Shown here: piece by piece, positions 5,958-35,822 of the stretch
Numbering within the stretch: the first letter of the stretch is position 1
Layout of the letters: every line of letters starts with the position of its first letter
Translations under genes and position numbers: made by a program
Assembly (NCBI GenBank): GCA_044892525.1
Contig: CM097885.1
Coordinates: 240,932,001-240,996,000 of the forward strand
Origin: Schmidtea polychroa
Lineage: Eukaryota
Direction of reading: 5' to 3'
Length of the DNA stretch: 64,000 nucleotides
The notes under the pieces: generated by a model
What the model saw: the letters and a program-made list of their open reading frames with translations, nothing else
What the model was told of the DNA's origin: nothing
Database searches by the model: none

Positions 5958-5985
5958 AAACAGTATATTAAAAATTATTGTAAAA

Positions 5986-8188: not shown

Positions 8189-8237
8189 AATTGAATTGAA
8201 TTATTTGCATTCAAATATACTATTATAAACAATAACA

Positions 8238-8763
8238 TTAATTTTTATTCATATATCTACAAAAAATATACATTATAACAACTCCAGTTGCAAATTTTAT
8301 ATAGTTTGTCATTTTTCTTTTGATTTCATCAGTTTCTTTAGCATTGTGGGCAAGTTTATTTAATACACCCCATCCGCCACTGGCTTCTATCAAGGGGGTA
8401 AACTTGGACTTGATTATCTAGAAATGAATATTATTAAAATATATATAGACTATAAAAGAAATCTTACTTCTAAAGACTACTGATAATAATGTTCTGAGTC
8501 ATGTTGACTATTTGCAAAGATTATTTTCATGTAGGTGAATCCTACAATTATCCTTGTCCATTTCATGTCTTCATCGAAAAGACATTGAAATATTCTATTG
8601 AAGTAATACTTATTGGTTTCCAGGCATTCCATCTCCATCATTTGCTGATAATCGATATGTTCAAGTTCAATGATTTGTTCGGTTCGATTGACCAGGAAAT
8701 TGAGGCTGTCGACTTATTCGCGGTGACAATTCCGTTTAAAACATTTTCAATAAATTGAGACAT
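8238..8763 (-). pseudogene. Bcl-2-family gene carried by Maverick 1 (BH1, BH2, C-terminal membrane anchor; one intron; two lesions)
   Basis: BH1-like FNRIFQCLFDEDMKWTRIIVGFTYMKIIF, BH2-like PLIEASGGWGVL, tail anchor YIKFATGVVIMYIFCRYMNKN*. Phase-0 50-nt intron GTAAGA..TTTCTAG at 8467-8418. Lesions: 1-bp deletion near 8715 (intact in the left-arm copy) and TAG at 8479-8477. Confidence 0.8.
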
Positions 8764-10798
8764 TTTTACAATAATTTTTAATATACTGTTTTATTTATAT
8801 TACTACTACTGAAATATCATATGATTCTGATTGGTTGATAGATTATAAAAGTAAAAATATGAGTTTTGATTTGATACAACATGAATACAATATTTCTATT
8901 GGTAATTAGTATAATGAGTGTGTGCTAAAACTAATAATAATAATAATAATAATATCTTTTAATATATTTTAATATCTTTCCCAATATTAATGATAAAAAT
9001 AATATTTATATATCATTAAATAGATCTTGCACTATGCTTTAAAATGAGCTATCGTTTAATAAAATCGGATGATGGGAACACTAACTTGTTTCATGACCAA
9101 AAACAGGTCACCGCTGGAACAAAGACATTATATTTTTAAAATATTAATATTTAAAAAAAATAATGTCTTTGTTCCAGCGGTAACCTGTTTTTTGATGAGT
9201 CATCGGATGAGTCATCGTCTTTGTTCTACAAAAATTATTTTTTAAAAAAAATTTCGCCCGGGGGAGGGGGTATATGTCTTTATTCCAGCGGTGACCTGTT
9301 TTAGCGGTGACCCATCCATCTACTTGGCGATTATTAGTAAAAAGTGAGCTCACTCTGGTGAACTATAATTGGATAACATTCTTATGGATCCACGGACTAT
9401 TAATGGACGATATTTTTCCGATTTATTTCATGGTCCCTGTTATCGTTTAACGCTCAACGAAAAACATAAGAATTGTTAGAAAATTCGACCATAATTCATT
9501 TAAATTTTATTGTACACAAAAAATGTATTTAAGGCAAATTTATTCGGCCTGCAAACGGGTCACAGGTTGTTCTCCAATTCAGACTAAAACTCTGTTAGTC
9601 ATTATTGACCAAACGTTTTGAATTAATTAGTTAAACAAGCTTAACAATTTCATTAAAGTTCTGATCTATTTTAATTTATGTTTAACTACTATTTTTTAAC
9701 TACTATACTTAAAAGTTTTTAATTTATTATTCTGAAAAACCAAATTAATTTTGATCAGACTTATAAGCCTAAAACCCTATTTATGACATCGCTGACTAAA
9801 TTGCCCCATGAATTGGCTGCGCTTTTATACTCATTCTATAATTAAATTCTTTCCCAATCAAATTGATTTTGGGATTTTGAGACTCTCTCTCTCCAGGCTT
9901 TACATTCATCACCTAATTTGTTTTGAATTTCGAATATTTAGGTTTATGAACAATTCATTTATTTTTATGTTAATTTGCCCGAATTTAATTTACCGGTGGC
10001 TCTTTGTTCTCTCGGGTTTTGCTCATACCCCAATTTGGCCTAACCTAATTAAAAATTTTGTTGAATAATCGAATTTTTTCACACTGCTCTGGTTTCCCAT
10101 TAACTCGGGTTTTTAATTAGATAATTAATTTTTAATTAATTTTAGTTTTTTGTAAATATTTCCTTCTGGGGACTCCCCATTCATTTTATTTCATTATATA
10201 TGAATTCGTCTCATTGGTTTGTCATCCATCCATATCAGTTTCCTCCTGAAAATATTCATTTTAAATATTTTTGTACTTTTAATTATTATTGTGAATTTGA
10301 TGTTATTTATATTTTATTTTTGTGCCTATTTCATTAAACTCCAACAATATTATTTTTATGTTAATGATTTTTTGTGTCTGTTTTCTCAACTTTTAACTGT
10401 TTATTGGGTGTTTTCATATTGTTTGAGTTTAACTCGACTTAATGCTATGTTTTTCGTGTTTTATTACCCCCCTGCTTCTTCAAAATCCTCACAATTAGAG
10501 CTTTGTTTTATCGAATGTCAGTTTTGGCCCAATAATTTTATTAATTGATTGCAAAAATTATAAATGAAATGCTTATTAATAAAATATCATTTTAAAAGGT
10601 TTTAAAATAAATATTTTAAAAAATAGATTAATTTCAAAAATAATAATTAATTATTTAAATTGAATTGAAAAATGTTTTAAAATAATAAAATTTTTTAATC
10701 TGTTTATTAAATTTATAATATTTATAGATTTTTCTATCCTATATATAAGGATGACAGGAAAACTTTATTGTCTATTTAATAATAATAAATGTAACTTA

Positions 10799-16213: not shown

Positions 16214-16305
16214 GTATGCAATATCTTTGATGAATATTGTATTTTAGTATCATAATAATATTTAAATATTGAGAACAAGTATAATTTCCTACAAATTAAA
16301 TCATA

Positions 16306-17474
16306 CTCCCTCTGTCCCATAATACTGGATCTTTTTCGTTTGGTGTCCGCGGATTATCGCGAATATACGGCTCAACCTCAATATTGTTTTATTATCAGTT
16401 GAATTAATCATACGACTTTCTAAAAAACATCATTTACCATAAATATAACCGTATCTTCTTGCTTTATTTCAATATTTCATAAAAGGTCAAATATTACAAA
16501 AATCGTTGTCCCATATTACTGGATAGTTTTCACAAAAAACTTAAAATACTTTATAAATCGTCAAAAATTAAAGAAAGTAACAATAATTTTAAACTTATTT
16601 GTTCACATTTAACAATGTTTTATGATTACTTGATATCCCCTATTATTTTGACATTTCATTTTTGGATTTTTTTGTAAACGCCATTTAAATTTTTCGTTGA
16701 TGGTTTGGTGAATGGTTTGATGGCAAAATTGGAAAATGGAACCTGCAAAAAGGAATAGCACTTTCGTTTTCACACCCCTTGCTATTGATAAAAAGGAGTA
16801 CCGCAAAATGGTGATTGCAAAAGTACTTCCAGCAATTAAATCTAAGTGGCCTGGAAATCGCATAAAACCAATTAAAACGATTTTTATTCAACAAGACAAC
16901 GCTACACCTCATATTTCACCAGATGATTCAGAATTTTTCCAACACGCAACAAGCGATGAATTTGATATTCAATTTATCTGTCAACCACATAATTGCCCCG
17001 ATATGAATATCTTGGATTTTGGATATTTTTGAGCCATCCAAAGTGCCTATTATTCAACTAATCCGTCTAATATAGATGGCATTATCAAATTTGTTGAACA
17101 ATCTTTAAATGACATGCCTCGTGATTCGTTGAATAAAGTTTTTTTATCTCTCCTAAATTGTATGATTGAAAGCATCAAAGTCAATGAAGGAGACAATTAC
17201 AAGCAACCACACATGGCCAAGGATCGTAAAATCAATAATGGCACGCTACCTATATCTTAAAGTAAAAGCAGAAATATTAGCAAATGCTCTTTCCATTTCA
17301 TTCTCTCAAATACATGTTTTTACGCACTTATGTAGCAGAACTACCATTTTTAAGAAATAAATTTAATAAAAATTTATCAACTTTTGGACAAAATTAGTTT
17401 TTTATAGAAACATATCCAGTAATATGGGACAAGAAAAACAGAGAAAACTATCCAGTATTATGGGACAGAGGGAG
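16306..17474 (+). mobile_element. Tc1/mariner DD39D (Guest/Stowaway-type) element, internally deleted, in the GS intron
   Basis: TIR CTCCCTCTGTCCCATAATACTGGAT, TA TSD, subterminal GTCCCATATTACTGGAT copies. QQDNATPH...QPHNCPDMNILDFGYF has 39 residues between the Asp in QQD and the Asp in ILD; in-frame TGA at 17030. Confidence 0.92.
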
Positions 17475-18811
17475 TATAATATTATTTTGTATACTACAAC
17501 ACAACTTTACCGGGCTCATAGAAATGGATAAAGACTAAAATTAACTTCTAGTTCATGGTTTACGACTGTTGTCATTTTGTTTTATTTTATTATTCAAATA
17601 TGGTTTATAGTATGAATTTTTAAATTTTAATCAAGAATTTCAATAACTGCCAAGGGGTATTTACATATGAAAAGGTTTTGACAGTTTCGTGCTGTAACTT
17701 TTGGGGGCCCTGTGTAGATACTAAAAACGTTTCTTTTAATTTTATCGCATTCATTTTTATTGATTTTAATTAAAAGAAATAATACAAAGAAATTATAAAG
17801 CAATTTTTCAAGTTTTTGAAAAAAATAACAGAATTATTAGGTATACTTGTTTCAAATTAAATCGTAGCCAATTAGATTTGTTTGAAAGTTAAATGAATTT
17901 TGAATTTCCATCTTTGGTTTTTCTTTCAATTCGACAATTTTTTTTGCTATTGGAGAAGTTTTCATAATGTATTTAATATTTGGGGCCCAGTGCGATTGGA
18001 CTTGCAATAGCGTACGGCGCTGGATTTTGCACGAGTTTTGTTCATTACGAATTACAAGAAATATCTAAACGAAAATATATTTCTATTAATGATGCGTTAT
18101 GNNNNNNNNNNNNNNNNNNNNNNNNNNNNNNNNNNNNNNNNNNNNNNNNNNNNNNNNNNNNNNNNNNNNNNNNNNNNNNNNNNNNNNNNNNNNNNNNNNN
18201 NNNNNNNNNNNNNNNNNNNNNNNNNNNNNNNNNNNAGTAGATGGATTGGGCACCGCGAAACAGGTCACCGCCAGCACAAAGACATTTTTTACCCCACCCC
18301 CCCCCCCCGGCCGGAAAAATTTTTAAAATTTTTTTTTTCAACTTGAGAACAAAGACATATGACTCATCCGATGACTCATCAAGCATTCAAGGTAGACTTG
18401 AGAACAAAGACATATGACTTATCAATGATATATAATTATTATTATTTTTAAAAATATTATTATTTCTAATGTCTTTGTGTTCGCGGTGACCTACTATTTG
18501 GCCTGCTAAAAGTTATTGTTCCCATCAACTTATTTCATCGATCGATAGCGTATTTTGAAGCTTGGTGCAAGACCTTTCGAATGAGCTATTGCTGTNNNNN
18601 NNNNNNNNNNNNNNNNNNNNNNNNNNNNNNNNNNNNNNNNNNNNNNNNNNNNNNNNNNNNNNNNNNNNNNNNNNNNNNNNNNNNNNNNNNNNNNNNNNNN
18701 NNNNNNNNNNNNNNNNNNNNNNNNNNNNNNNNNNNNNNNNNNNNNNNNNNNNNNNNNNNNNNNNNNNNNNNNNNNNNNNNNNNNNNNNNNNNNNNNNNNN
18801 NNNNNNNNNNN

Positions 18812-21288
18812 CTCCGAGTTTATCCGACAAAATATTTTATCCCCCTATGGGTAATGCTCAAAAGGGTACTGCCCCGAGTTTATCCGACAAAATATTTTCT
18901 CCCCCTATGGGTACGGCTCACAAGATTTTGTGTAAATCGTTGATTATATTATTTTTTTTGTTTTAATTATCAATTACATAATAATTTCGTTTTGTTTAAA
19001 TCGTTGATTATATTATTTTTTTGTTTTAATTATCGATTATGTTTGTTTAAATTATCGAATATGTAATAATTTAATTTTGTTTAAATCGTTGATTATATTA
19101 TTTTTTTTTGTTTTGATTATCGATTATGTTTGTTTAAATTATCGAATATGTAATAATTTAATTTTGTTTAAATCGTTGATTATATGATTTAATTTTGTTT
19201 AAATCGTTGATTATATTTTTTTTTGTTTTAATTATCAATTACACAATAATTTCGTTTTGTTTAAATCGTTGATTATATTATTTTTTTTTGTTTTGATTAT
19301 CGATTATGTTTGTTTAAATTATCGATTATGTAATAATTTAATTTTGTTTAAATCGTTGATTATATTATTTAATTTTGTTTAAATCGTTGATTATATTATT
19401 TTTTTTTGTTTTAATTATCAATTACACAATAATTTCGTTTTGTTTAAATCGTTGATTATATTATTTTTTTTTGTTTTAATTATCGATTATGTTTGTTTAA
19501 ATTATCGATTATGTAATTATTTAATTTATCATTATTATTGGGAAAGATATTAACGNNNNNNNNNNNNNNNNNNNNNNNNNNNNNNNNNNNNNNNNNNNNN
19601 NNNNNNNNNNNNNNNNNNNNNNNNNNNNNNNNNNNNNNNNNNNNNNNNNNNNNNNNNNNNNNNNNNNNNNNNNNNNNNNNNNNNNNNNNNNNNNNNNNNN
19701 NNNNNNNNNNNNNNNNNNNNNNNNNNNNNNNNNNNNNNNNNNNNNNNNNNNNNNNNNNNNNNNNNNNNNNNNNNNNNNNNNNNNNNNNNNNNNNNNNNNN
19801 NNNNNNNNNNNNNNNNNNNNNNNNNNNNNCTCCGAGTTTATCCGACAAAATATTTTATCCCCCTATGGGTAATGCTCAAAAGGGTACTGCCCCGAGTTTA
19901 TCCGACAAAATATTTTCTCCCCCTATGGGTACGGCTCACAAGATTTTGTTTAAATCGTTGATTATATTATTTTTTTTTTTTAATTATCAATTACATAATA
20001 ATTTCGTTTTGTTTAAATCGTTGATTATATTATTTTTTTGTTTTAATTATCGATTATGTTTGTTTAAATTATCGAATATGTAATAATTTAATTTTGTTTA
20101 AATCGTTGATTATATTATTTAATTTTGTTTAAATCGTTGATTATATTATTTTTTTTTGTTTTAATTATCAATTACACAATAATTTCGTTTTGTTTAAATC
20201 GTTGATTATATTATTTTTTTTGTTTTGATTATCGATTATGTTTGTTTAAATTATCGATTATGTAATAATTTAATTTTGTTTAAATCGTTGATTATATTAT
20301 TTAATTTTGTTTAAATCGTTGATTATATTATTTTTTTTTGTTTTAATTATCGATTATGTAATTATTTAATTTATCATTATTATTGGGAAAGATATTAACG
20401 NNNNNNNNNNNNNNNNNNNNNNNNNNNNNNNNNNNNNNNNNNNNNNNNNNNNNNNNNNNNNNNNNNNNNNNNNNNNNNNNNNNNNNNNNNNNNNNNNNNN
20501 NNNNNNNNNNNNNNNNNNNNNNNNNNNNNNNNNNNNNNNNNNNNNNNNNNNNNNNNNNNNNNNNNNNNNNNNNNNNNNNNNNNNNNNNNNNNNNNNNNNN
20601 NNNNNNNNNNNNNNNNNNNNNNNNNNNNNNNNNNNNNNNNNNNNNNNNNNNNNNNNNNNNNNNNNNNNNNNNNNNNNNNNNNNNNNNNNNNNATACTCCG
20701 AGTTTTTCCGACAAAATATTTTATCCCCCTATGGGTAATGCTCAATAGGGTACTGCCCCGAGTTTATCCGACAAAATATTTTCTCCCCCTATGGGTACGG
20801 CTCACAAGATTTTGTTTAAATCGTTGATTATATTATTTTTTTTGTTTTAATTATCAATTACATAATAATTTCGTTTTGTTTAAACCGTTGATTATATTAT
20901 TTTTTTGTTTTAATTATCGATTATGTTTGTTTAAATTATCGAATATGTAATAATTTAATTTTGTTTAAATCGTTGATTATATTATTTAATTTTGTTTAAA
21001 TCGTTGATTATATTATTTTTTTTTGTTTTAATTATCAATTACACAATAATTTCGTTTTGTTTAAATCGTTGATTATATTATTTTTTTGTTTTGATTATCG
21101 ATTATGTTTGTTTAAATTATCGATTATGTAATAATTTAATTTTGTTTAAATCGTTGATTATATTATTTAATTTTGTTTAAATCGTTGATTATATTATTTT
21201 TTTTTGTTTTAATTATCGATTATGTTTGTTTAAATTATCGATTATGTAATTATTTAATTTATCATTATTATTGGGAAAGATATTAACG
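18812..21288 (+). repeat. Three ~1-kb higher-order units (two palindrome cassettes plus AT-rich minisatellite AAATCGTTGATTATATTATT...), separated by N-runs
   Basis: Near-identical blocks at 18812-19555, 19830-20400 and 20694-21288, each ending GGGAAAGATATTAACG; a shorter inverted version lies at ~27470-27910. Confidence 0.9.
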
Positions 21289-21960
21289 NNNNNNNNNNNN
21301 NNNNNNNNNNNNNNNNNNNNNNNNNNNNNNNNNNNNNNNNNNNNNNNNNNNNNNNNNNNNNNNNNNNNNNNNNNNNNNNNNNNNNNNNNNNNNNNNNNNN
21401 NNNNNNNNNNNNNNNNNNNNNNNNNNNNNNNNNNNNNNNNNNNNNNNNNNNNNNNNNNNNNNNNNNNNNNNNNNNNNNNNNNNNNNNNNNNNNNNNNNAG
21501 TTTATCCGACAAAATATTTTGTCCCCCTATGGGTATTGCTCATATGGGTAATGGTCAAAAGTGTACTACTCACATTCAACATGTCTCAAAGGGCATAATA
21601 TAATTATTATTAAATTCTGACCAACTTAAATCAATGAAGGGGTAGAACAAAAATATATTACGTTGCGGTATTTTAAATTTAAAAATATTTTTAAAACTTA
21701 TTTTGACACTAAAGTTTACTTATTTAACAAAGACATAATTATTGCACATGCCTTGCATAAATATTATTATTTTTTAAATTTTCAATATTTCTTTTAAAGT
21801 CTTAACACGCGCGGAAGTTATTATTATTATTATTATTATTAGTGAAAAATCTAAAATATTTTCTACACACACACACAACCCATTAAACTTTATTATGATT
21901 ATTATCAATATCAGTCAAAAACCTAAAATATTTTTTACACACATATACAACTCATTAAAC

Positions 21961-22029
<69 letters not shown>

Positions 22030-22060
22030 TTCAAAGAATTATTTTCAAAATTTTTATCAA

Positions 22061-22111
<51 letters not shown>

Positions 22112-22138
22112 CTCCTAGTCTATGTTAACAAAAGGTAT

Positions 22139-22290
22139 TTAACTTGCTCAATTTGTAAAGAAAATCAAGTTTCGGTTTTGTATTTACCGTGCGGTCACGT
22201 AATTGTTTGTTCTAAGTGTCACGAGAAGAATGTTCACAATTGCCAAGCTTGTTCAACACAGATTAATGAATATCATACTATATATATATG
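22139..22290 (+). pseudogene. IAP-type C3HC4 RING finger fragment inside Maverick 2
   Basis: LTCSICKENQVSVLYLPCGHVIVCSKCHEKNVHNCQACSTQINEYHTIY = C-x2-C-x11-C-x-H-x3-C-x2-C-x7-C-x2-C. No start codon; begins just after the arm junction. Confidence 0.8.
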
Positions 22291-22421
22291 TAAGTTCTCA
22301 ATATTATATCAAATGAATTATGGTAATGGATTATGACCGGAAAAATTAACAAATAATATGAAATCACCTTGGTAATTAAATATATGGGGCGCAACTACCA
22401 AATGGTGATGAAGGAATACCC

Positions 22422-22553
22422 ATGAGTTCATCAAAATGGGAAAAAGATCTTCGCAAGAACCATGAAGATGCTCGAAAAGTAGAAAAAACCCTAACAAATA
22501 TTTTAAAGTTGAAATTATGTGTTACAGTAGTATTGGTTATTATTGTTTCGTAA
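22422..22553 (+). CDS. Short ORF with a C-terminal hydrophobic tail (43 aa), possibly a gene remnant
   Basis: MSSSKWEKDLRKNHEDARKVEKTLTNILKLKLCVTVVLVIIVS*. Confidence 0.3.
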   Translation: MSSSKWEKDLRKNHEDARKVEKTLTNILKLKLCVTVVLVIIVS

Positions 22554-25500
22554 ATAAATGTTTTAATTTGTTTTTATAAATTTATTGTTTTATTGTAATA
22601 CTTTTTGATTAAAACATATTCATTTTGTTTTAATATTTGTATTAATTTTTTAAATAGTGTTATTTATATATGGAAATTTACAATTATATATTATATACAA
22701 TTATATTTACAATTATATTTACAATTATTATAAATCATAATGATGGTTTTCTTCTGTTCATTGATTCTCCTCTGATTTTACTGCCATAATCATTTTCGAC
22801 AAAATGCAAATATAATATTTCTAGTGTCTTTGTTAATCATGCCCATTTATTGCAAAGTATTTGTTAATTATGCACTTGTATTGCAAATTTATTAGTCATA
22901 CAATTATATTATTTTTTCATGTCCTGACATAATATTATTATTTTTAATTTTATTATTATTTTGTTTAACAATACCATATAGCAAATTTTTAGGCAATTTA
23001 GTGAAATGTTATTTTAAATATAGGAATTTCTTAAGTAAAATAGATAAATTAACCTATTTAGTTAGAAATCCCTGGTTTTTGGCTGAACCATTTAATTAAA
23101 ATATTCTAGGATTCATAACAAATATTTTGATATAGTTGATACATATACCAATTATTTCAATTATTTAACTAGAAACATAACTGAATTCTTAGGTAATATA
23201 GTATTTTTTAGTGAATTTATAAATATTATCTGACATTTTGATGTATTTGACAACAAATTAATCAATAAAGACCATAGCATATTGTAAGTTTTTATATATA
23301 GTCTGAATTTATCCGACAATATATTTTGTCCCCCTATGTGTATTTGTCGTAAGGGTACTGCTTACATTCAACATGTCGCAAGGGTATATTAATTAAAGCA
23401 TATGTATATTAATTATTCTTAGGCAATTTAGTGAGAAATGGATGATCATAGATATCAGAAATTCGTGAATATTTTGAATGTAACTTACCGAATTCTCATT
23501 TCGAGCGACTAATTTATTGGTTAAATTTTTCATGTTTAGTCATTTAAAATAATATTTAGCAAAAGGTAAGATATGAATATTTAGTATTTCATAGGTAATT
23601 TATTCATCTAATGTTCATTACAATAGTTAATATAACTTCGTGAGAAATGTATGGTTATTAATATATTCATGGATATTTTTGGTAGAAAGTCTTTATCATT
23701 TGGAGTAAATTTCTGTCTATGTTCGAGACAAAAAAGAGACATAATAGAAATATGATCATTTGGTTATCATTTAACCAATTAAGGTGCTTATTAGTTAGAA
23801 ATATAGGGTTACAATTCTTTTCTAATTTAATGAGATGATCATAGGGTGTAATATATCTTTTTTGAGAAATACATGGTTAACATTTTTAAATAGGGATTTT
23901 GAGTAACCAAAACAGGGATATTTTGTGCGAATAATTTAAGAATATTGGTTAATTTTCTCTTTTTTAGTCATTTAAAATAATATTTAGCAAAGGTAATTTA
24001 GCAAAATATCATTGAAGGATTTATCCATCCGATAATAATATTCCTTCAATAGATTTTACCCTTTATTCAACCGATTTAATTTCTAGAAATCTAATTAAAA
24101 TCATAAAATTCCTTCAATAAAGATAAATTTTCTTTAGCGGTTGTCGATTTCCAACTTTTAAGTCAATATTTCTCAAGTTTTGTCACTGATATCCCCACAA
24201 TGACTAAAATAACTTTTTAAATAAAATAATTTAAAGCAATAACCTTTGATATCAATCCCAATTAATTCTAAAGATTTCAAATATTTCATTGTGAAAACCA
24301 AGTCAATTGATCATTAACCCTAAACGACTTAATAAAACAGTGGATAATTAATAAAAAACTTGTTCTAAAACATAAATTACTGTGCAATAACATTCATCAC
24401 AGCCTAATAAACGATATAATTTCACAGGAGCTATTATTAATTCATAGCTGACTATTTCCCTTTAAAATTTTACCAATAAGAACATTGTCGATTTAAATAG
24501 AGATTTCAAACATTTCCACCTTAACCAATCCCTCACCAAATATTTCTACCATTTTAAACACCCCCCCCCCTTAAAAATCATATATTACCATCTTAACCAA
24601 CCGACTTTAATATATCAGCCCTTTAATATATCAATTCTCTTAAATCCATAGAAAATTCATCAAAATATGAATATTATTTAATTGTTTCAGACATCCCTCC
24701 ATTGAAATAATTTAGTATCTAAATTCATGTAGTAAAAGCCCACTAAAAGATCAAATTTACTAAAATCAATATTTTCTACAAATATTTCGCCACATTTACC
24801 ATCAAATACCTAACTAGAGATGAAATATATTGTTTGATCATAATTCTTCATCGATTCAGCTAATTATATAGCAATTATAACGTGATATATCTTTCAAAAT
24901 CACAAATTTCAGTATATTTTACAATAATTTTTACAAAAATTAAATAATGATCACTTGATTATTGTAAAAACTCTAATTATTAACCTAACTGTCATTAAAA
25001 ATAATTTTTATTTAAAATTAAATTTAAAAACAAGTCAATAAAATATAGCAAATTATCAAGAAATTAATTAAATTTGTCTTAGAATTAACACTAAAACGTT
25101 AAATTTCAAAATATTCTTTCAATTATTCACAAAAAGGTTAGTAATAATGTTAGTAAAATCCCGCTAACTCTAAAAATTACCAATGAATTTAATGCTAAAT
25201 AATAACCAAAAATTTGCCTAAATAAAATCATTAAAACATCCCAGTACCATTACGACCAGTACCCTTACGAGCAGTACCAATTGTGAACAGTACCCATAGA
25301 GGGAGAAAATATCTTGTCGGATAAACTCAGAGTATATATAATAAAACGAATTAACAATAACTCCATCAAATTGAATCAGTCAAATTAACACAAATTTTGA
25401 TAAAAAAATCATATTCTAAAATGGTAAGAAGCGTAAAGTCGAAAGATAATTTTAATAACACCGAGATAAATTAACAATATCATTCTCAGGTGGTAAGGAT

Positions 25501-26045
25501 CTTTAAATGCATTTAAAAAAATGCATTCAAAATGCATTTATCATAATTAAATAAATCAATCAAATATTCAATAGAGGAATGTTTGAAAATTTTTAAAATA
25601 TTTATGATTTCCTTATCAGTGTAAGTATCGTGATTATTTATAAAAGCTTCAACTGTGCTGTTAAAAAATTTCAATGAACGCTTATCTTCGGAATAGGTTG
25701 GACTTAATTTTTCCATATTTCTAGTAGGACTTATATAAAAAATATTGACAAAATAATAAAGTTACTAAATGTGTTTTGTGATTTACACAATCATATTCAT
25801 ACTTGTAGAAATCATCAGTAATAAATAAATTTCTTAATAACTAAATTACTTTTGTTTTTACATTTATAAAAATTGAGATAGCCAATCAAATTAGTGTTTT
25901 ATAAAATGTAGAAATTGTAACCATGGTTGAACAATAATAATAATAAGCACGACTAGTACCCTTGCAACCTGTTGAGTGTGAGCAGTACCCATAGGGGGGA
26001 CAAAATATTTTGTCGGATAGACTAGGAGTATATATAATAATAATA

Positions 26046-26076
<31 letters not shown>

Positions 26077-26371
26077 AAATAAGAAATTTGAAGATAATTT
26101 TGAAAATGATAATAATAATATTTTATAAATAAAATAAGAATTTTGAAGAAAATAATCATGAAAATTATGAAAATGTTAAAAATAATGAAAATATAGAAAA
26201 TGATGAAAATGTTGAAAATGATGAAAACGTTAAAAATTATGGAAATGATCCTGAAAATAATCATCAAATATTGAAAATCGTAAAATGGTGCAGAAATTAA
26301 GTTTTATGAATATTTAAGTAAATAATGATAATGAAACTTCTACAATAAAATAATAATTAGAATTTTGCAAA

Positions 26372-26402
<31 letters not shown>

Positions 26403-26652
26403 AATATTGATAAAAATTTTGAAAATAATTCTTAGAAAATAATACTTTGAAAAATATTTGATGAAAAGTTCCTGAAATAATCATGAAAATGTTGAAAATC
26501 GTGAAAATATTGAAAATGTAGAAAATTATTAAAATATTCATGCAAATGATGAAAATGTTGAAAATCATGAAATTGACGTAAAAATTATGTTTTATAAATA
26601 TTTAAGTAAATAATAATAATGAAACTTCTAAAATAATAGTTAGAATTTTGCA

Positions 26653-26697
<45 letters not shown>

Positions 26698-26834
26698 GTT
26701 TAATGAGTTGTATATGTGTGTAAAAAATATTTTAGGTTTTTGACTGATATTGATAATAATCATAATATAGATAATAATAATAATAAAGTTTAATGGGTTG
26801 TGTGTGTGTGTAGAAAATATTTTAGATTTTTCAC

Positions 26835-26874
<40 letters not shown>

Positions 26875-27920
26875 TTCCGCGCGTGTTAAGACTTTAAAAG
26901 AAATATTGAAAATTTAAAAAATAATAATATTTATGCAAGGCATGTGCAATAATTATGTCTTTGTTAAATAAGTAAACTTTAGTGTCAAAATAAGTTTTTA
27001 AAATATTTTTAAATTTAAAATACCGCAACGTAATATATTTTTGTTCTACCCCTTCATTGATTTAAGTTGGTCAGAATTTAATAATAATTATATTATGCCC
27101 TTTGAGACATGTTGAATGTGAGTAGTACACTTTTGACAATTACCCATATGAGCAATACCCATAGGGGGACAAAATATTTTGTCGGATAAACTNNNNNNNN
27201 NNNNNNNNNNNNNNNNNNNNNNNNNNNNNNNNNNNNNNNNNNNNNNNNNNNNNNNNNNNNNNNNNNNNNNNNNNNNNNNNNNNNNNNNNNNNNNNNNNNN
27301 NNNNNNNNNNNNNNNNNNNNNNNNNNNNNNNNNNNNNNNNNNNNNNNNNNNNNNNNNNNNNNNNNNNNNNNNNNNNNNNNNNNNNNNNNNNNNNNNNNNN
27401 NNNNNNNNNNNNNNNNNNNNNNNNNNNNNNNNNTTGAAAATAATAATAATAATTTTGAAAATATTCCGCGCGGGCGTTAATATCTTTCCCAATAATAATG
27501 ATAAATTAAATAATTACATAATCGATAATTTAAACAAACGTGATCGATAATTAAAACAAAAAAAAATAATATAATCAACGATTTAAACAAAACGAAATTA
27601 TTGTGTAATTGATAATTAAAACAAAAAAAATAATATAATCAACGATTTAAACAAAATCTAGTGAGCTGTACCCATAAGGGGAGAAAATATTTTGTCGGAT
27701 AAACTCGGGGCAGTACCGTTTTGAGCATTACCCATAGGGGGATAAAATATTTAAAATAAAATATAATATAATCAACGATTTAAACAAAATCTAGTGAGCT
27801 GTACCCATAGGGGGAGAAAATATTTTGTCGGATAAACTCGGGGCAGTACCCTTTTGAGCATTACCCATAGGGGGATAAAATATTTTGTCGGATAAACTCG
27901 GAGTATATAGATTAATACTC

Positions 27921-27992
<72 letters not shown>

Positions 27993-28980
27993 TCTTGGGA
28001 AAATGTTAATAACTTTGCCAATATTAAAGATGGTGATGACAACAATAGCGCATTCGAAAGGTCTTGCACCAAGCTTCAAAATACGCTATCGATCGATGAA
28101 ATAAGTTGATGGGAACGATAACTTTTGGCAGGCCAAATAGTAGGTCACCGCGAGCACAAAGACATTAGAAATAATAATATTTTTAAAAATAATAATAATT
28201 ATATATCATTGATGAGTCATATGTCTTTGTTCTCAAGTCTACCTTGAATGCTTGATGAGTCATATGTCTTTGTTCTCAAGTCTACCTTGAATTCTTGATG
28301 AGTCATCGGATAAGTCATATGTCTTTGTTCTCAAGTTGAAAAAAAAAATTTTTTAATTTTTCCGGCCGGGGGGGGGGGGGTGGGGTAAAAAATGTCTTTG
28401 TGCTGGCGGTGACCTGTTTTCGCGGTGCCCAATCCATCTACTGAAATTACATTTTTAATATTCAAAATTATATTTAATTTTCAAATTATTATATAATCAT
28501 GGATTTAGATTACATATAAGAAACTAAATCAAATAGTCGGGAAATCGAAGAAATCGTGACAGGTTATTTTTTGAAAAATCTTCCGAATGTGGCTTGTTTT
28601 GCTTTTATATTCTATTACTTAACAAACTCGTAGTAGGTAGATTCTGTCTCACAAGTGCTAGTCCTAAGGGTTATGGCGCCCGATGGCTTTATTGGTACTA
28701 TATATATATACATTCATTAGAAACTATAAAACAATAAATAAAGAATATACTTCAGTGCTTTTAATTAATATTATTTCTTTTCAATTGATATTGTATTTAT
28801 TAAAAAACATCGATATATTTACTGATTCATAGTCAAGATTTTTAATAAATACAATGAATAATGTTAAACTAAGTATTTCTTTACTTAAATAATTTTTAAT
28901 AATTTCTTACAATTTTTAAATGTAGCAGTCTCAGAGGTGGTTTATTTTATTTAAAATTCAGGAAATAATATAAGTATTCA

Positions 28981-29065
<85 letters not shown>

Positions 29066-30046
29066 GAGTTTTATAATTATTTTTGTAAGATTTGATTTTG
29101 CGCTAACTCTGTGCATTCCTTTGACCAAAATAACTCAAAAGCCAACAAATAATAATGTTTATTTCAAATTATAAAATTGCACAATCAGTTGAGATACACT
29201 AGTTATATTTCAGTAAGTTTACCAATGGTAAACTGCTCAAAAGATATTTGAAACTGTTGATGCCTTGGGAATAAACAATTATTTTTCACTAACACAATCT
29301 TTATAATTGTATTTGACAATAAGTCTTCTGTTCATTATATGATTTCTGATATCGGAATTCTGACTTTTCTTTAGTTCCTGGTATCTTTAAAATTTATCTG
29401 GCACTATAAATTTGGCAAAATCCTAAAAATTAACATGATTTTTTCTAAAATACAGATTTTTTATAGTCGTTAGTTATCGATCCAAAATATTCTATTATCG
29501 CCCAATAGTGGTTTATGAGCTCTAGAAAAACTTAATTATCCACTATTGAACCTCAATCTAATAGACCATCACTGCGTCTGCCACATACCATCAACTTTTT
29601 TTGAATAATTAATTAATTTTTATTTTTGTAATATTTTTACTTGGGACATCCCACCAATTTTTATATATTATATTCGTCTGTAACCTTATATTTGATTCCC
29701 GATCATAATATCTTTTCTCTCCAAAAATACTCATTTTTGATTTTAGTTAATTTTTAATTAATTTTACTCTTAATTTAAAATTTTTGAGTTTTATATTTGA
29801 ATTTTTGTACTTTTAAATTTATTNNNNNNNNNNNNNNNNNNNNNNNNNNNNNNNNNNNNNNNNNNNNNNNNNNNNNNNNNNNNNNNNNNNNNNNNNNNNN
29901 NNNNNNNNNNNNNNNNNNNNNNNNNNNNNNNNNNNNNNNNNNNNNNNNNNNNNNNNNNNNNNNNNNNNNNNNNNNNNNNNNGTAAAGTATTTCAAACTTT
30001 CATACAAAACAAATTGTATAATAAGGTAACCAAATTTATTTTTTAA

Positions 30047-30259
30047 CCCATTTTTGCCCGAATTTTTTTCTCTCAAAATTTATAATAATTCAAATAAAAA
30101 ATCACTGCTCACATGCAAAAATAATACAAGACACGATCTCCATGCTTGCTTGCTGTAGACTGTTGCAGTCTAAACTTTTATTATGCCGAGAATAATGGAG
30201 TGGGGGGGGGGGGTAAAAATACTAAATGTTCCAATATTGGAACACTGGGCAAAAATGGG
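30047..30259. mobile_element. piggyBac-type MITE
   Basis: TIR CCCATTTTTGCCC / GGGCAAAAATGGG flanked by TTAA on both sides. Confidence 0.85.
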
Positions 30260-30989
30260 TTAATCTAAATGTACACTCAATTTCAGTTTTCAAAAATTCA
30301 CTATTATTTTCTCTAAAAAGTTAAAATGAGAGGTGTTTGTTGAAATAGAATTTCATTACAAATGGCTAAATTATACAAAATTTTATCAGTTTTTTGAATA
30401 TCATAATTGGAAAATATATTAAATAAACTATTTAATATGAAGTTGAAGATTGTAAATTTTCTTCATAAAAATGTTATGTATATAATTAAACTTTATTTAT
30501 TTAGTCTAATAGTAAATAAGAAAAAAGAAATTGAAATTTGTTATTAAATGGTGAAATAGATAAAAATATTTATTACAAATTGGAATTAGTTAATTGGAAA
30601 AGTTTTTCTGACTTAAAATTATACCATATTTAAAATATGATCAACAAATTACAATATCATCCGAATACAGTTCAGTCGGATATTATAAAAATTGGATATT
30701 GTGAAATTAGTATGGCACTAGTGCTGTACGTACCTTTTTAAGGAAATCCGTTATTATAAAATTTGATTATAATAAAGTTAATTTCTGGCAAGTTACTGTA
30801 ATTTAATATAAGCCTTATATTATAAGGGTCGGTAAACATTTTATAGAGTGCAAAATGATATTCTCTAAATAGGGAGTGGCCAAGCAACGCTCCTTCTACT
30901 TTTCATAAACAATTTTTATTTCTAAGTGATTACATATTAGTTCAATGAAATTAACTATGGTTGCAGTGTCAACATCATTTCCAATCTAT

Positions 30990-31510
30990 ATTAAAGCTTT
31001 CTTACCCTTCTCTCTCAGATAATCACTCCTAGATAGTGAGCCTTTAACTTTTGAAATTTAGCTTTAATATAATGATGTGCATCCATAATATTTAAGCAAA
31101 GTTTTTGTAAATATTTACATAACGATGTTAGTTCACTTAATACATCGTAAAGTGCAATTAATGCTACACGATATTGGGAATTATTTAGAATTTGTAAACA
31201 ATACTTACAAATAGTCTCAGTACAATATTCAACTAGTGTGTCATAATTTTTAATAAAAGCATTCAGAGCAAAAATATCTTGATAACGAGTGGACTCCATT
31301 TAAAGGTTTGAATGACATTAAATCACATTAAATAACCTCTGCCAATTTTTCAAAATTTCCTTTTTTAAAGAATATAGTATATACAATCCTAATGAAGGAC
31401 TCTGTATCGTGCATAATAGGCACATGTTTCTGCGCGCCAACTAAACTTAAATCACTTGTCGACTTAAAACTTCTGAGTATGGAACACGATAAGCTGTGAA
31501 CTCTTTGCTT
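30990..31510 (-). mobile_element. Degenerate hAT transposase fragment
   Basis: HSLS...LSLVGAQKHVPIMHDTESFIRIVYTIF, then STRYQDIFALNAFIKNY...ALYDVLSELTSLCKYLQK, matching the hAT region after CxxH. Confidence 0.65.
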
Positions 31511-33541
31511 CAACCATAGAATTGATCAAAAAGAAGAAAAAAATGTTTTAATGATTTTGATATGTATAAAAATCGAAAATGCAAAATATAGTTTTAACTT
31601 TGTGAGTAATTTCTTTTTGTCGCATGGTTTTATATTTATATATAAAGAGATAATAAGTGTATTTTAAATATTCGTAAAAAGATTAAACTTTTATAGGGAT
31701 TCCTCATTTTTTGTGCATAGAGGTCCCTGAATACCAATTCCGACCATGCCTACATTTATCATTAAAATTTTGAATTATATTTTTGCGAGTGTAATTTTTT
31801 TACACAAAAAGCTGATAGGGACAGATGTGAGTTGAGGTCTGTAGTTTGCAGGAACCTGATTTTGTATACATGAAATTATTTATCATTAATTAAAAATTAT
31901 GAATAAATAATATTGTAATTAGTTATATGTCAAATCTAGAATAATAATATGATTAATCACGTTCTGAAACTGATAAATATGATTTTAGAGGACGAATGGA
32001 TGAAAGAATGAGTTATTTAGTAATTATTTTAATGAAATTATAGTTAAAATTGTTTATAAAAACTGAAAATCAAAATTTCCAGGAAACAGATAAATCAGAA
32101 TAACTATTATATATTTTTATTATTATTAGATGACAGCTTTTACTAAACATTTAAAAAAAAATTTCTAAAATTTGTTTGTTTTTTTAAATATTGAACAATT
32201 GTAATGCAATAATACAAAATTATCAAATTGCGATCTGTCGTAAAAATTCAAATTTTTTACTTCAATAACAAATAGTTACAGTGGCGTTGCTAGGAATGGC
32301 TGACATTTGCTTGGGAGTAGTAATTTTGCTATAAAAAGACCGTTCGCTGGACATAAAATGCCGCCCCTATAGATAAAAATAGACTTGACCGGCCCAAAAA
32401 TTTGGCCAGTTTCTCAGAATCAGTAAAAGCCGAAGTACACTAGACGTTTTCTATTGTTTGCTTGAGTTTAGCACGTCTTAAAATAATGAATTGCCTGACA
32501 ACTATTAATATATTTCATCAAACATGAAGACTGTTTTGCGCATTTTTTGTTCTAGTCACATACAATATTTTTTAATGAATACATTCATAATATTTTACAA
32601 AAAATGAAAAACGAAATCTCAATTTGAAACATAATTGTAGTGTGAAATATTTAATAAAAGAATCATTCGATGGATAACCGTCTGCGCATTTGCAAAAAAA
32701 ACAAGCCATAAAGTTTTTTTTTTACCTAGGCCTCACCTTTTCGTAACGTGTTTACACTACACTTGAGTACATTAGAATAATTAATCACTAAATATGTTGA
32801 GTCATTCAACATGCGCGAGTAAAAATAACAAATATGACTGTTTAATAACATTTTGTGTCAACGCAGATGTGGACACTATCCTGACGTATTAGAAAACTAA
32901 ATGCTACGCATATAAACCATATTTATTCAAATTAGAAGCGTTTAGTCTTTACATAAAACTTATGGGTACATATCGTGAAAAGGCATATAATTTATGGTGC
33001 CTAATTACAAAGAGGCTGATACCAAATGGGAACGATGAAAAATAAATTTTTTTCTATTTTTATACGACGGTTATGTTATAGAAAGGCGAGAAAATGAATT
33101 GTTGGCAGTTTACAGAATTTACCGAATTTAATTCTTCAAATTGCAACAGCTTTTCTATTTTGAAGTGTAAACAGATACTTGAGAATAATACATTTTAAGA
33201 TATTAGGAAATTAATATGTAGGTATGTTGAAACTTGTTTTAATTCTATATTTAATATATTTCTGTAATTTTTTACGCTGTAATAATGTGTTTATTTTGTC
33301 GTGATTTATACTATTTGATATATTGTATTTTATTGTATTAGTAAATTAATTATTATTATAATTTGACAAAATATTAAAAAATATATTATAAAAAATATTA
33401 AATACAATGATTATCTATATGATATTATATGATATGTAAAAGGTATTATATGATATTAAATGAGGCCGCCTGTCCGAGAAAGTTTTGGCGTATTAAATTT
33501 TTAAATTTTATTTTATTAAATTTTATTATTACTGTTTATTA

Positions 33542-33575
<34 letters not shown>

Positions 33576-35249
33576 TATTATTATTATCATTTTTATGATT
33601 AAGTCCAGAAATAAATAAATTCTACATAGCAAGAAGTAAATAAATAAAGAAGTAAATAGTTTACTGTAGGGATAAGATTAAAAAGTTAATTTAAATGAAA
33701 TCAATTCAAGAAAATTACATTAAAAAGTTAATTTCGAAATAAAGAAAGTATTGGTAAACTTGTAGAAAACTCTTTAAGGAAATTAACCTTGGCTAATTCA
33801 ATGAGTGGTTTAATTTCATTAAAACATTACATTCACCCCAAACATTTTATTGATGATTCGGTTACAATTACAAAAGAAATATACAATAACATAGCTGGTG
33901 TCAGAAGGTAAAACAAATACACGCATTCGATAATTTTCTCAATCTCTACACCTTTTATAACACCTGTTATAGAGATTTACATGATAGAAACACTGTTGGC
34001 CGAACATTGTATGCCATATTCTTCAAAGAATCTCAGTTCTTTCATAAAACTAAACAAATAACTAAATTAAAAAATCAAACCGAAATAAAAAAAATGATCT
34101 CAAATCCAAACCACCCGAAAATGTCAAGCGATTACCAAAGAACACCCAGTATCAATCATGAAAACATAACATCGCAAAACGAAAGCAACTCCCACAAGTC
34201 TTATTCAGACAACACATTCTCAATTAATTCAATAATCAACCCAAAAGCAAACTTACCAACGAAAACTGGACTTCACAAAAATGGTTAGATTTCGCTAAAC
34301 TGACCCTAATATTGATGGGAATCAAGCCATCCAAAACCTTGTGCTTTCACATACTAGCAACAGATCAGGATTAAAAGTTAATTTTAAATAAATCGATTCA
34401 AGAAAATTGCAATAAAAATTTAATTTGGAAATAAAGAAAGAATTGGAAAACTGGTAGAAAACTAACGATGAAAATCATGAATGAAGATGAAATGCACAGA
34501 AATCAATCTCGGCTAATCCAAAGAGTGATTGGAGGTCTCATACTTTTAATTTAATAATCAATCTTGTGAAGTTAATAGTTTTATTGCTGTTCTATTATTG
34601 TTGTTATGATTATTAATTTTACTGTTAAGCAAAGAGAATTAATTTCAATAAAATATAACAGTCACCCCAAACCGCCTCGGCGCCCTTTTTATTGCTGACT
34701 CAATTGGGTCCAACAATTTCCTATCACAAACAATTACAAAACAAAATATATCCTACCACTATGCGTTAGTTATAGATTTTTAGGTTAGATTTTGTATCAA
34801 ATAATTGTATGGAGTTGGCAGAGTTAAGAATTGTCCTGAGCTGCACAAACGCTAACTACGCCGTTGACTAGTTGCGAAAGAGAGAAGGACAAGACTAATC
34901 AGGTAGATTTTTTTAATTAAATTAATTAAAAAGTTAATTAGATTTTTTAAAATAGACAAACTTAAAAAAATTTTCATCAGTTTCAGCGGAATAATTTCAA
35001 ATATGTTTAAGGGTTAGGCACTTGAGAGGGAATTGAATATATGTTAGGAATCTAGAGCAAAATTTCTATTATGTAAAAATTTTTAAGTTATATTATCTTC
35101 ATTTTCTCAGGATATAGATTTATTTTTATTTCTACACAACTTCATACATATGGTTACACGGAAAAAAGCTTTCCATAATAAAATTAATACATTTTATAAT
35201 TGTATCAACGCACCAACTTACCTGTGTGTTGAAAATTTTGTTATACTAG

Positions 35250-35822
35250 AATTTGCAGAGCTATCTAGTGATACAAGCTTGTGACTCAGATTTTCTCAAG
35301 TACCGGTACATGAATTTTGGATAGAAATCAAATTAGAATATCCACTACTATCACAAATGGCAATAAACAAATTACTGCCATTTTGTACAACGTATTTATC
35401 GGAATCAGCCTTTTCCACGTTAACATACATAAAATCAAGATATCGTTCAACTTTAATAAACGTTGAAAATGTATTGCGAACTGCACTAACAAAATTGAGT
35501 CTAGATTTAATTATTTGTGTAAAAATAAGCAAGCACATCCGTCACATTAATATTGTTTCATGTTAATAATATTTGGACGTTCTTATATTTAAGAAAACTT
35601 GTTACGAAAGTTTGTTTTTTCTATTGACTATATATTTGAAATAAATGGCTATGTATTCTTTAATCCTTACTTTATTGACATTGTAAAATCTACATTGTAA
35701 ATTCTACAATGTCGCGATATTACATCTACGGTCAATATAGATTTCATTATATGGAGGAGGGGCCGTTTAAGATTTCCTAGGCTTGAAGGGAGTTGCTATA
35801 TGAAAAAGTTTAAGAAGCCCTG
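35250..35822 (+). mobile_element. hAT (Charlie/Buster) 3' remnant
   Basis: VHEFWIEIKLEYPLLSQMAINKLLPFCTTYLSESAFSTLTYIKSRYRSTL; right TIR AAGTTTAAGAAGCCCTG. Confidence 0.85.

What the first reader, a model, noticed from the sequence alone, without database searches (positions are those of the whole stretch)
22124..22336. IAP-type RING finger directly after the arm junction of element 2
The spacing and residues (VSVLYLPCGHVIVC..C) match the C-terminal RING of IAP-type E3 ligases. The upstream part, where BIR domains would be, is absent and appears lost at the junction. It suggests the parent element encoded an IAP or an IAP-like ubiquitin ligase.
Basis: partly seen in the sequence, partly recalled or inferred. 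Interest (0 to 1): 0.72.

Follow-up and report, generated by a model that had tools for sequence, protein, structure and literature searches.

The report
BIR-less IAP-like RING on Maverick element
The RING finger is the broken-off end of a small gene carried by a virus-like jumping element in a flatworm-type genome; intact relatives look like the back half of a cell-death inhibitor (a probable ubiquitin-binding domain plus the RING) without the BIR domains that define such inhibitors.

Summary
The RING is real (Pfam E 7.8e-11; best solved relatives cIAP1, cIAP2, XIAP) and starts exactly where the left arm of a 10.2-kb element with Maverick/Polinton-type ends stops matching the right arm. What was lost is not BIR. 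An intact relative, P0002 (163 aa, 95% identical over the RING), has a helical N-terminus instead. The first third of that gene lies 3.2 kb away, inverted, behind the right arm, and other copies in sequencing runs continue past both breaks. P0002 belongs to an unnamed family of 128-218-aa proteins. No BIR was found in 29 members tested. Their middle domain folds most like the cIAP1 UBA (rank 1 of 48,161 chains, Z 6.9, below the tool's safe level). All 22 complete members keep the IAP dimer tail; none keeps the Pro and one keeps the linchpin Arg. Best reading: a dead piece of an IAP-derived UBA-RING gene in a non-autonomous fold-back Maverick derivative inside a host intron. IAP homologues on Polintons are in print, and this scan noted fold-back Polinton derivatives and a RING-less IAP on other DNA. 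I found no description of the BIR-less UBA-RING form. A second decayed member lies upstream of a giant Gypsy gag.

The parts
18236..28442 (.). Element 2: non-autonomous fold-back element with Maverick/Polinton-type termini
   Evidence: The terminal 11 bases are perfect inverted repeats and identical to those of element 1. Outer arms 18236-18595 / 28442-28039 are 86% alike. The left flank is N, so its target-site duplication cannot be tested.
18236..22123 (+). Left arm: outer terminal repeat, repeated motif, AT-rich tandem repeats, four N gaps
   Evidence: Inverted matches to the right arm: 21499-22060 / 27192-26591 at 91%, 21955-22123 / 26180-26017 at 79-81%. The three near-identical blocks between N gaps may be assembly duplicates (inference).
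22122..22124 (+). Deletion junction between arm motif and RING gene, with two shared bases
   Evidence: Arm identity ends at 22123. Six contigs of run X12 diverge from the window before 22122; their loose letters read, by eye, as P0002 residues 99-108 in the RING frame, 10 of 10 (table 7).
22124..22288 (+). 3' part of the gene: C3HC4 RING and IAP-type tail (P0002 residues 109-163)
   Evidence: 52 of 55 residues identical to P0002; Pfam E 7.8e-11. No in-frame start codon. The frame runs on to a stop at 22334-22336.
22422..22553 (+). Small downstream ORF (43 aa) with a hydrophobic C-terminus, followed by AATAAA; function unknown
   Evidence: no Pfam family at cut-off. Indels occur here in other copies, so it may not be a gene.
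23289..23393 (+). Internal copy of the ~110-bp repeated motif
25252..25360 (-). Internal copy of the motif, opposite strand
25526..25716 (-). 5' part of the same gene (ATG at 25716, about 63 codons), broken off inside the UBA-like domain
   Evidence: 25674-25528 matches P0002 residues 1-49 at 86%, E 6e-22. Contigs of X1 (24) and X12 (2) diverge at 25526; the X12 letters read, by eye, as P0002 residues 50-59, 9 of 10.
25717..25932 (-). Upstream region between arm motif and start codon (putative promoter; function inferred)
   Evidence: 216 bp with two TATA-like hexamers; one X7 contig covers 25733-25926 collinearly; no BIR signal.
25933..28442 (-). Right arm
16214..39268 (+). Intron (inferred) of a host glutamine-synthetase-like (lengsin) gene that contains element 2
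   Evidence: P0189 residues 36-329 map to 15445-16212 and 332-513 to 39274-39792; GT and AG read.
3435..9324 (.). Element 1, for comparison: same termini, 6-bp target-site duplication, same fold-back layout with a TBP-like gene
   Evidence: TGGCGA at 3429-3434 and 9325-9330 (chance about 6e-5); arms 5795-6167 / 8954-8579 at 97%; Pfam TBP E 1.1e-10 on 5959-6447.
56684..57114 (+). Second, decayed member of the same protein family, about 2.4 kb upstream of a giant Gypsy gag frame
   Evidence: tblastn with P0037: three pieces at 58-64% identity, E 2.7e-43, with in-frame stops and frame changes; Retrotrans_gag and zf-CCHC on 59553-63998.

Best explanation
The RING is the 3' third of a compact gene of about 180 codons carried next to one end of a Maverick/Polinton-type element. 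The intact protein is two short helices, a three-helix UBA-like domain, a long helix and an IAP-type RING with the dimer-forming tail: the back half of an IAP, with no BIR. It most likely dimerises through helix, RING and tail, binds ubiquitin through the UBA-like domain, and acts on host ubiquitin and cell-death signalling as an atypical E3 ligase (all inferred). This copy is dead. Element 2 is a fold-back derivative in which one end of the parent was copied onto both sides, probably by a template switch during strand-displacement replication (inferred). The right side keeps promoter and first 63 codons; the left side lost promoter and the first two thirds by a deletion that fused the arm motif to the RING. 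Shown: RING, both breakpoints, continuation in other copies, no BIR in the family, termini. Inferred: UBA identity, enzyme activity, autonomous parent, copy-back mechanism.
For: P0002 and four cluster-mates carry RING plus helical N-terminus. Both ends of the gene are in element 2 on opposite strands. Other copies continue past both breaks in frame. Many variant contigs cover the whole 22110-26040 stretch: 55,231 / 9,136 / 262 / 1,002 records in four runs, 29-30 of 30 bins. No BIR in 22 of 22 members by Pfam or 29 of 29 by a custom profile. The 24 family RINGs form one side of a branch, support 96/91. The isolated middle domain (pLDDT 94.5) matches cIAP1 389-444 best of 48,161 chains (Z 6.9, rmsd 2.0, 54 of 55 aligned), with XIAP UBA third (Z 5.5, rmsd 2.2, 52 aligned); hhalign places it in the same register on an IAP UBA alignment, P 0.003. 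Tail of 12-13 residues with Phe/Tyr at the cIAP1 Phe616 position in 22 of 22 (role of that residue from passages of PMC6349121). Termini and the 6-bp duplication of element 1 fit the Maverick description in PMC8097293 (passages). Element 1 has the same one-end-twice layout.
Against: The UBA call is weak by every sequence test: no Pfam UBA in members, best E 0.043 with a custom UBA profile and hhalign probability 10%, no UBA hit with the domain profile against PDB sequences, Foldseek best E 3.5, 4% identity, and Z 6.9 is below the level the tool calls safe for helical bundles. 0 of 22 members keep the Pro of the last CxxC and 1 of 22 the linchpin Arg, 5 have Lys, against 19 and 13 of 23 IAP-type rows, so ligase activity is uncertain. 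No Polinton core gene was seen in element 2 and no family member could be placed next to one. One member lies beside a Gypsy element instead. The relatives are gene calls on mostly short contigs, so spliced upstream exons would be missed; one X12 contig has a different, open 5' extension at 25710. The tree has 63 columns, did not converge (0.927) and leaves the sister group open.
Confidence: 0.68

Rival explanations
1. The protein is a pseudo-ligase or partner subunit: it keeps the dimer surface and a ubiquitin-binding domain but binds E2 poorly, pairs with host IAP RINGs and so redirects, dampens or destabilises them. This differs from the best explanation in mechanism only.
For: Tail length and aromatic kept in 22 of 22, Pro in 0 of 22, Arg in 1 of 22. 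PMC6349121 states that the cIAP1 tail works in trans and that the R606 contact is crucial (passages).
Against: XIAP itself has Tyr at the linchpin position (alignment) and is an active ligase (recalled), so loss of Arg does not prove inactivity. All eight zinc ligands are kept. No test of pairing with a host IAP was made.
Confidence: 0.25
2. The parent gene is a true IAP whose BIR domains lie in upstream exons that gene callers miss.
For: RING and probable UBA are both closest to IAPs. Earlier scan notes report intron-split Polinton genes in this genome (unchecked). One contig shows an alternative open 5' extension. 13 of 57 scanned hits are BIR proteins.
Against: Only 216 bp separate the start codon from the arm motif and no frame of the window scores as BIR. 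That spacer is collinear in another sample. 20 family proteins of 128-218 aa begin with Met and lack BIR, including those with longer N-termini. The BIR proteins match P0002 only from residue 70 or later.
Confidence: 0.1
3. The RING is a piece of an ordinary host gene picked up by a fold-back, MULE- or Helentron-type DNA transposon; the Maverick-like ends are incidental.
For: No Polinton core gene seen in element 2; the 110-bp motif also occurs outside both elements at 41993 and recalls Helentron-associated repeats (recalled, untested).
Against: Termini identical to element 1 with its 6-bp duplication; intron-free compact frame with its own upstream region; many divergent copies; relatives down to 20-40% identity keep the same compact layout, which a one-off capture would not give. 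No named host protein shares the N-terminal part.
Confidence: 0.1

Closest known systems
cIAP1/cIAP2/XIAP (BIRC2/3/4), C-terminal UBA-(CARD)-RING half
   Same: C3HC4 RING with PCGH, helix before the RING, 12-13-residue tail with the aromatic used in trans; middle domain superposes best on cIAP1 389-444 and XIAP UBA (that 389-444 is the UBA is recalled and fits the MGF motif aligned).
   Different: No BIR and no CARD; 128-218 aa; two extra N-terminal helices; no Pro in the last CxxC and rarely the linchpin Arg; encoded by a mobile element.
Accessory IAP and Bcl2 homologues of adintoviruses/Polintons (Starrett et al. 2021, PMC8502044; passages read)
   Same: IAP-related cargo on an element with Maverick-type ends in an animal genome.
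   Different: The passage gives no domain layout and the main text never mentions RING; the supplementary figures it cites were not seen and may include RING-only genes. Here BIR is absent and the carrier is a non-autonomous fold-back derivative.
B-IAP of the planarian giant retrotransposon Burro1 (Lee et al. 2026; paper not held, known only from passages of PMC13465017) and BIR/RING motifs of Burro elements (passages of PMC6431247)
   Same: A mobile element of a flatworm carries an IAP-derived gene; a decayed member of the present family lies upstream of a giant Gypsy gag in this window.
   Different: B-IAP is described as RING plus BIR; this family has no BIR, and the finding itself is on a DNA element. 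Whether B-IAP's RING belongs to this family could not be tested.
Maverick/Polinton elements (Barreat and Katzourakis 2021, PMC8097293; passages read)
   Same: Terminal inverted repeats beginning AGT and ending ACT; 6-bp target-site duplication shown for the sister element 1.
   Different: Element 2 shows none of the eight core genes, is 10.2 kb, repeats one end twice, and its own duplication is hidden by an N gap. The end motif is AGTAGA rather than (AGT)2.
MYLIP/IDOL, CGRRF1, MGRN1, MUL1, MEX3C RINGs (other zf-C3HC4_3 ligases)
   Same: Same RING subclass; IDOL RING ties with IAP RINGs in Foldseek.
   Different: Lower in the profile search (MYLIP 3e-9, CGRRF1 2.9e-8, MGRN1 3.2e-5, MUL1 9.9e-5 against 7.8e-16 for cIAP2); the N-terminal region points to IAP UBA.

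Membership tests
IAP (BIRC) family | At least one BIR domain | tested here: not met
   No Pfam BIR in P0002 or in 22 of 22 members; custom BIR profile best E 0.045 on 29 members and 1.7 on the window. Spliced upstream exons are not fully excluded.
IAP (BIRC) family | C-terminal C3HC4 RING of IAP type | tested here: met
   Top ten PDB sequences are IAP RINGs for the window RING (10 of 67) and for the family profile (10 of 20).
IAP (BIRC) family | 12-13-residue tail with the aromatic that acts in trans | tested here: met
   22 of 22 complete members; the window copy's tail is 27 residues.
IAP (BIRC) family | UBA domain before the RING | tested here: inconclusive
   Structure rank 1 cIAP1 (Z 6.9, rmsd 2.0, 54 aligned) and rank 3 XIAP UBA, hhalign P 0.003; but Pfam, PDB sequence profile and Foldseek give nothing significant.
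Canonical RING E3 ligase | Eight zinc ligands, C3HC4 | tested here: met
   Six ligands invariant and two nearly invariant in 20 aligned rows, two of which are truncated.
Canonical RING E3 ligase | Pro of the last CxxC and linchpin Arg | tested here: not met
   Pro 0 of 22, Arg 1 of 22, Lys 5 of 22. XIAP also lacks the Arg, so this lowers but does not exclude activity.
Canonical RING E3 ligase | E2-dependent ubiquitin transfer | not testable with these tools
   Needs a bench assay.
Maverick/Polinton | Long terminal inverted repeats with AG...CT ends | tested here: met
Maverick/Polinton | 6-bp target-site duplication | tested here: inconclusive
   Met for element 1, which has identical termini; the left flank of element 2 is N.
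Maverick/Polinton | Core genes (pPolB, integrase, ATPase, protease, capsids) in this element | tested here: inconclusive
   No long frame in the readable interior, so it is not an autonomous element; interior frames other than the RING and the small ORF were read by eye only, and five N gaps lie in the arms.
Maverick/Polinton | Gene present in an autonomous parent element | not testable with these tools
   No genome held; scans of viral and metagenome contigs gave no true relative.
Burro1 B-IAP | RING plus BIR within a giant Gypsy element | not tested
   Primary paper and sequence not available; the window ends inside the Gypsy gag frame.

The most novel reading that the evidence does not exclude
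An undescribed family of BIR-less 'half-IAPs' (UBA-like domain plus RING, dimer tail kept, canonical E2-activating residues lost) is shared between Maverick/Polinton elements and giant Gypsy retrotransposons of flatworms, and works by pairing with host IAP RINGs to control cell death or ubiquitin signalling. It would be a BIR-independent route by which two unrelated classes of mobile element act on the same host pathway.
Probability: 0.2. Interest if true: 0.72.

Novelty: new variant of a known kind. Interest (0 to 1): 0.45.

Why it matters
The copy itself is a dead fragment in an intron and matters little. The family matters more. Anti-apoptotic cargo on Polintons and on planarian Burro elements is known, and for Burro1 it is reported to help regeneration (second-hand), but that cargo is described with BIR. 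A conserved BIR-less UBA-RING form, with the dimer tail held constant and the usual E2-activating residues gone, gives a small, testable protein for asking how mobile elements tune host IAP signalling without binding caspases. The two elements in this window also show, twice, how one end of a Maverick is copied onto both sides and cargo genes are split.

Tried and rejected
No whole genome was held, so copies could not be counted in the assembly. Scans of viral contigs with P0002, the TBP-like frame, P0086, P0080, P0059, P0050 and a terminal-repeat pattern found nothing; the family alignment found one unrelated RING in a 212-kb contig. The metagenome scan gave 5 loci out of 72 candidates, all an unrelated 450-aa giant-virus-like protein sharing a short RING peptide; rejected. 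ESM Atlas: only generic RING clusters under 0.9, and no usable hit for residues 1-112. PHROGs: nothing for P0002. Foldseek on the whole model: no PDB match at E 0.001; in the viral library one unnamed match at 6.6e-4 and many RING or IAP rows. Homodimer prediction of P0002 gave no verdict (score 0.00 twice, alignment not used) and is not used as evidence. No listed sequencing run is on record as RNA: no RNA holder listed, nothing on expression; X12 is only guessed to be RNA. Small-share runs were not interpreted. A Bcl-2 reading of the small downstream ORF was considered by eye and dropped. Literature searches for an earlier description found IAP homologues on adintoviruses and B-IAP but no BIR-less UBA-RING cargo; most subscription papers and the supplementary figures of PMC8502044 were not seen. 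Scan look-ups by sequence, by place (near) and by the full word set found nothing on this gene.

Full report
Observation. The stretch 22124-22336 on the + strand is one open frame of 70 residues with a complete C3HC4 RING. Pfam zf-C3HC4_3 scores E 7.8e-11, and the ten best of 67 PDB sequences matched are RINGs of cIAP1, cIAP2, XIAP and BIRC7. A self-comparison of the window shows that the left arm of the element matches its right arm in inverted form up to 22123. An alignment of six copies of a repeated motif of about 110 bp shows the left-arm copy switching, in mid-motif, into the RING frame. The motif core occurs 17 times in the window at up to two mismatches against 0.25 expected.

The carrier. 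Element 2 spans 18236-28442. Its first and last 11 bases are inverted repeats and are identical to those of element 1 (3435-9324), which is flanked by a perfect 6-bp duplication, chance about 6e-5. AGT...ACT ends and 6-bp duplications are the marks given for Mavericks in PMC8097293 (passages read). The left flank of element 2 is N, so its own duplication cannot be tested. I saw no long frame in its interior, so it is non-autonomous. It lies in a 23-kb intron (inferred, 16214-39268) of a glutamine-synthetase-like gene whose two exons match adjacent parts of one protein. The best named relatives of that gene are flatworm lengsins at about 50% identity, so the host is most likely a flatworm (inference).

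What was lost. A search for longer relatives returned one protein among one candidate, P0002: 163 aa, 95% identical over the RING, from a cluster of five. It has no BIR by Pfam at E up to 1. Its first 49 residues match the window at 25674-25528 on the minus strand, 86% identical, and its last 55 match 22124-22288; residues 50-108 match nowhere in the window. The minus-strand piece starts with an ATG at 25716, 216 bp inside the right-arm motif. So both ends of one gene are in element 2, each reading inward from an arm. Contigs of four runs were laid on 22110-26040: 55,231, 9,136, 262 and 1,002 records, covering 30, 30, 29 and 30 of 30 bins, which shows many divergent copies of the whole interior but gives no copy number; X1 may be the source sample, and no listed piece spans the stretch. 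Loose ends fall at both breaks. Before 22122 (six contigs of X12) they read by eye as P0002 residues 99-108, 10 of 10; at 25526 (24 contigs of X1, two of X12) the X12 letters read as residues 50-59, 9 of 10. Other copies therefore run through both junctions. In the window copy the RING has no start codon and its frame runs 27 residues past the last cysteine instead of 12, so it is very unlikely to give a working protein (inference).

Layout. One end of the parent appears on both sides: complete through codon 63 on the right, and with promoter and first two thirds of the gene deleted on the left. Element 1 has the same layout with a TBP-like gene (Pfam E 1.1e-10), whole behind the left arm and cut short behind the right (5795-6167 / 8954-8579, 97%). 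A copy-back template switch during strand-displacement replication would give this; that mechanism is inferred from what is generally known of protein-primed linear replicons and was not tested. Earlier notes of this scan describe palindromic Polinton-ended satellites in this and another genome (unchecked).

The family. A phmmer search of 1.84 billion representatives found 338 proteins at E 0.001 and listed 150. About two dozen are short proteins whose match extends into the N-terminal part or that group with them; 20 of those I kept begin with Met and are 128-218 aa long. Of 57 listed hits scanned with Pfam, 13 have BIR, and these match P0002 only from residue 70 or later; none of the 22 family members among the 57 has BIR. 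A BIR profile built from 24 segments of fetched IAP-like hits scores at best E 0.045 on 29 family proteins and E 1.7 on six frames of the window. On RING columns alone the 24 family rows, including the window copy, form one side of a branch with support 96/91 among 59 rows; the tree has only 63 columns, the bootstrap did not settle, and the sister group is open. None of ten members looked up has an informative name; two clusters include contigs of 22-23 kb, a size that suits Polintons but proves nothing. A caveat: these are gene calls on mostly short contigs, and spliced upstream exons would be missed.

The N-terminal part. AlphaFold2 on the 20-row alignment gives six helices before the RING, pLDDT mostly above 90 for residues 11-110. 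The family profile aligned weakly (2.2 bits) to the stretch of cIAP1 that carries the MGF motif, and the whole model matched cIAP1 386-446 at Z 4.8. Folded alone, the 55-residue middle domain (pLDDT 94.5) matched cIAP1 389-444 best of 48,161 chains (Z 6.9, rmsd 2.0, 54 aligned), then the UBAP1 SOUBA domain (5.6), the XIAP UBA (5.5) and USP5 632-678 (5.4). hhalign gives the same register against ten IAP-type UBA segments, P 0.003 but probability 10%. Against this: no Pfam UBA in any member, no UBA among PDB sequences with the domain profile, Foldseek best E 3.5, 4% identity, and the tool warns that Z under 8, or under about 13 for helical bundles, may be a common arrangement. I rate the UBA reading likely, because it was a prior guess that came out first and agrees with the RING's affinity, but not shown.

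The RING. All 22 complete, non-redundant members end 12-13 residues after the last cysteine and have Phe or Tyr at the position of cIAP1 Phe616 (the window copy, truncated rows and near-identical cluster-mates were left out). PMC6349121 reports that this residue acts in trans in the RING dimer and that F616H is defective, and calls Arg606 the linchpin (passages). None of the 22 has the Pro of the last CxxC, one has the linchpin Arg and five have Lys, against 19 and 13 of 23 IAP-type rows. XIAP has Tyr there and is active (recalled), so this marks an atypical RING, not a proven dead one.

How it most likely works. The intact gene makes a small IAP-derived protein that dimerises, binds ubiquitin and acts on host ubiquitin or cell-death signalling, either as an atypical ligase (preferred) or as a partner that redirects host IAPs. 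Without BIR it should not bind caspases or IAP antagonists directly (established role of BIR, recalled). All of this is inference from structure and conservation; no activity, binding or expression was shown.

A second copy. tblastn with P0037 finds a decayed member at 56684-57114 (+), 58-64% identical in three pieces with in-frame stops and frame changes, about 2.4 kb upstream of a 1,482-codon Gypsy gag frame. That it belongs to the retrotransposon is not shown. Giant Gypsy (Burro) elements of planarians carry BIR, RING and BCL2-like motifs (passages of PMC6431247), and Burro1 B-IAP is described as RING plus BIR (passages of PMC13465017; the primary paper was not held).

Comparison and verdict. 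It works like the back half of an IAP but is not an IAP: the defining BIR was tested and not met. IAP homologues on adintoviruses are in print (passages of PMC8502044; its supplementary figures were not seen and may bear on this). Seven library searches (listings and abstract starts only, apart from the passages named) showed no description of a BIR-less UBA-RING cargo. Passages were also checked in PMC11131425, bioRxiv 10.64898/2026.10.13.758929 and PMC5803895 without relevant hits. I file it as a new variant of a known kind, interest 0.45: the local copy is a dead fragment, the autonomous parent was not seen, and the function is untested, but the family and its odd RING are concrete and easy to test.

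Noticed in passing
window 56684-57114 (+), upstream of 59553-63998: Decayed second member of the same RING family (58-64% to P0037) about 2.4 kb upstream of a very long Gypsy gag frame resembling planarian giant retrotransposons.
   Followed up: partly
window 3435-9324: Element 1: same termini as element 2, 6-bp duplication, a TBP-like frame (5959-6447) whole behind one arm and cut short behind the other, plus several small unknown frames (6607-6927, 7267-7593), some apparently with short introns.
   Followed up: partly
window 9326-9425 and 56323-56421: The DNA into which element 1 inserted is 73% alike (inverted) to the region just upstream of the second RING copy, so element 1 may sit in a remnant of the same repeat family.
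   Followed up: partly
window 3887, 18812-21612, 23289, 25252-27906, 41993: A motif of about 110 bp recurs in the arms, inside element 2 and once outside both elements (41993); its end and neighbouring microsatellites recall Helentron-associated repeats (recalled, untested). It may be a separate small element or a sub-terminal repeat.
   Followed up: partly
window 18812-21288: Three near-identical blocks separated by N gaps in the left arm, against about one in the right arm; possibly assembly duplication.
   Followed up: no
window about 16305-17478: Decayed mariner-type element with CTCCCTC...GAGGGAG ends flanked by TA and transposase-like frames (16721-17257), in the same host intron; the ends recall plant Stowaway/DD39D mariners (recalled).
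   Followed up: no
window 10950-11921 (-): Open 324-aa frame with an IS1595/ISXO2-like transposase domain (Pfam E 1.4e-13), probably a Merlin-type element.
   Followed up: no
window 1750-2880 and 4107-4632: Decayed transposase-like fragments read by eye (hAT-like), one of them inside the left arm of element 1.
   Followed up: no
window 43157-43378 and 45628-45933 (+): Exons of a host nucleotide-sugar (UAA family) transporter gene.
   Followed up: no
window 22422-22553 (+): Short ORF with a hydrophobic C-terminal end right after the RING gene, followed by AATAAA; variable between copies.
   Followed up: partly
window 52381-53916: AT-rich tandem arrays with periods of about 60, 85 and 146 bp.
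   Followed up: no
L001 8756-10126, L003 8747-10126, L004 3150-4511: An unrelated protein of about 450 aa with a C-terminal RING in giant-virus-like metagenome contigs, picked up by a chance peptide match.
   Followed up: no
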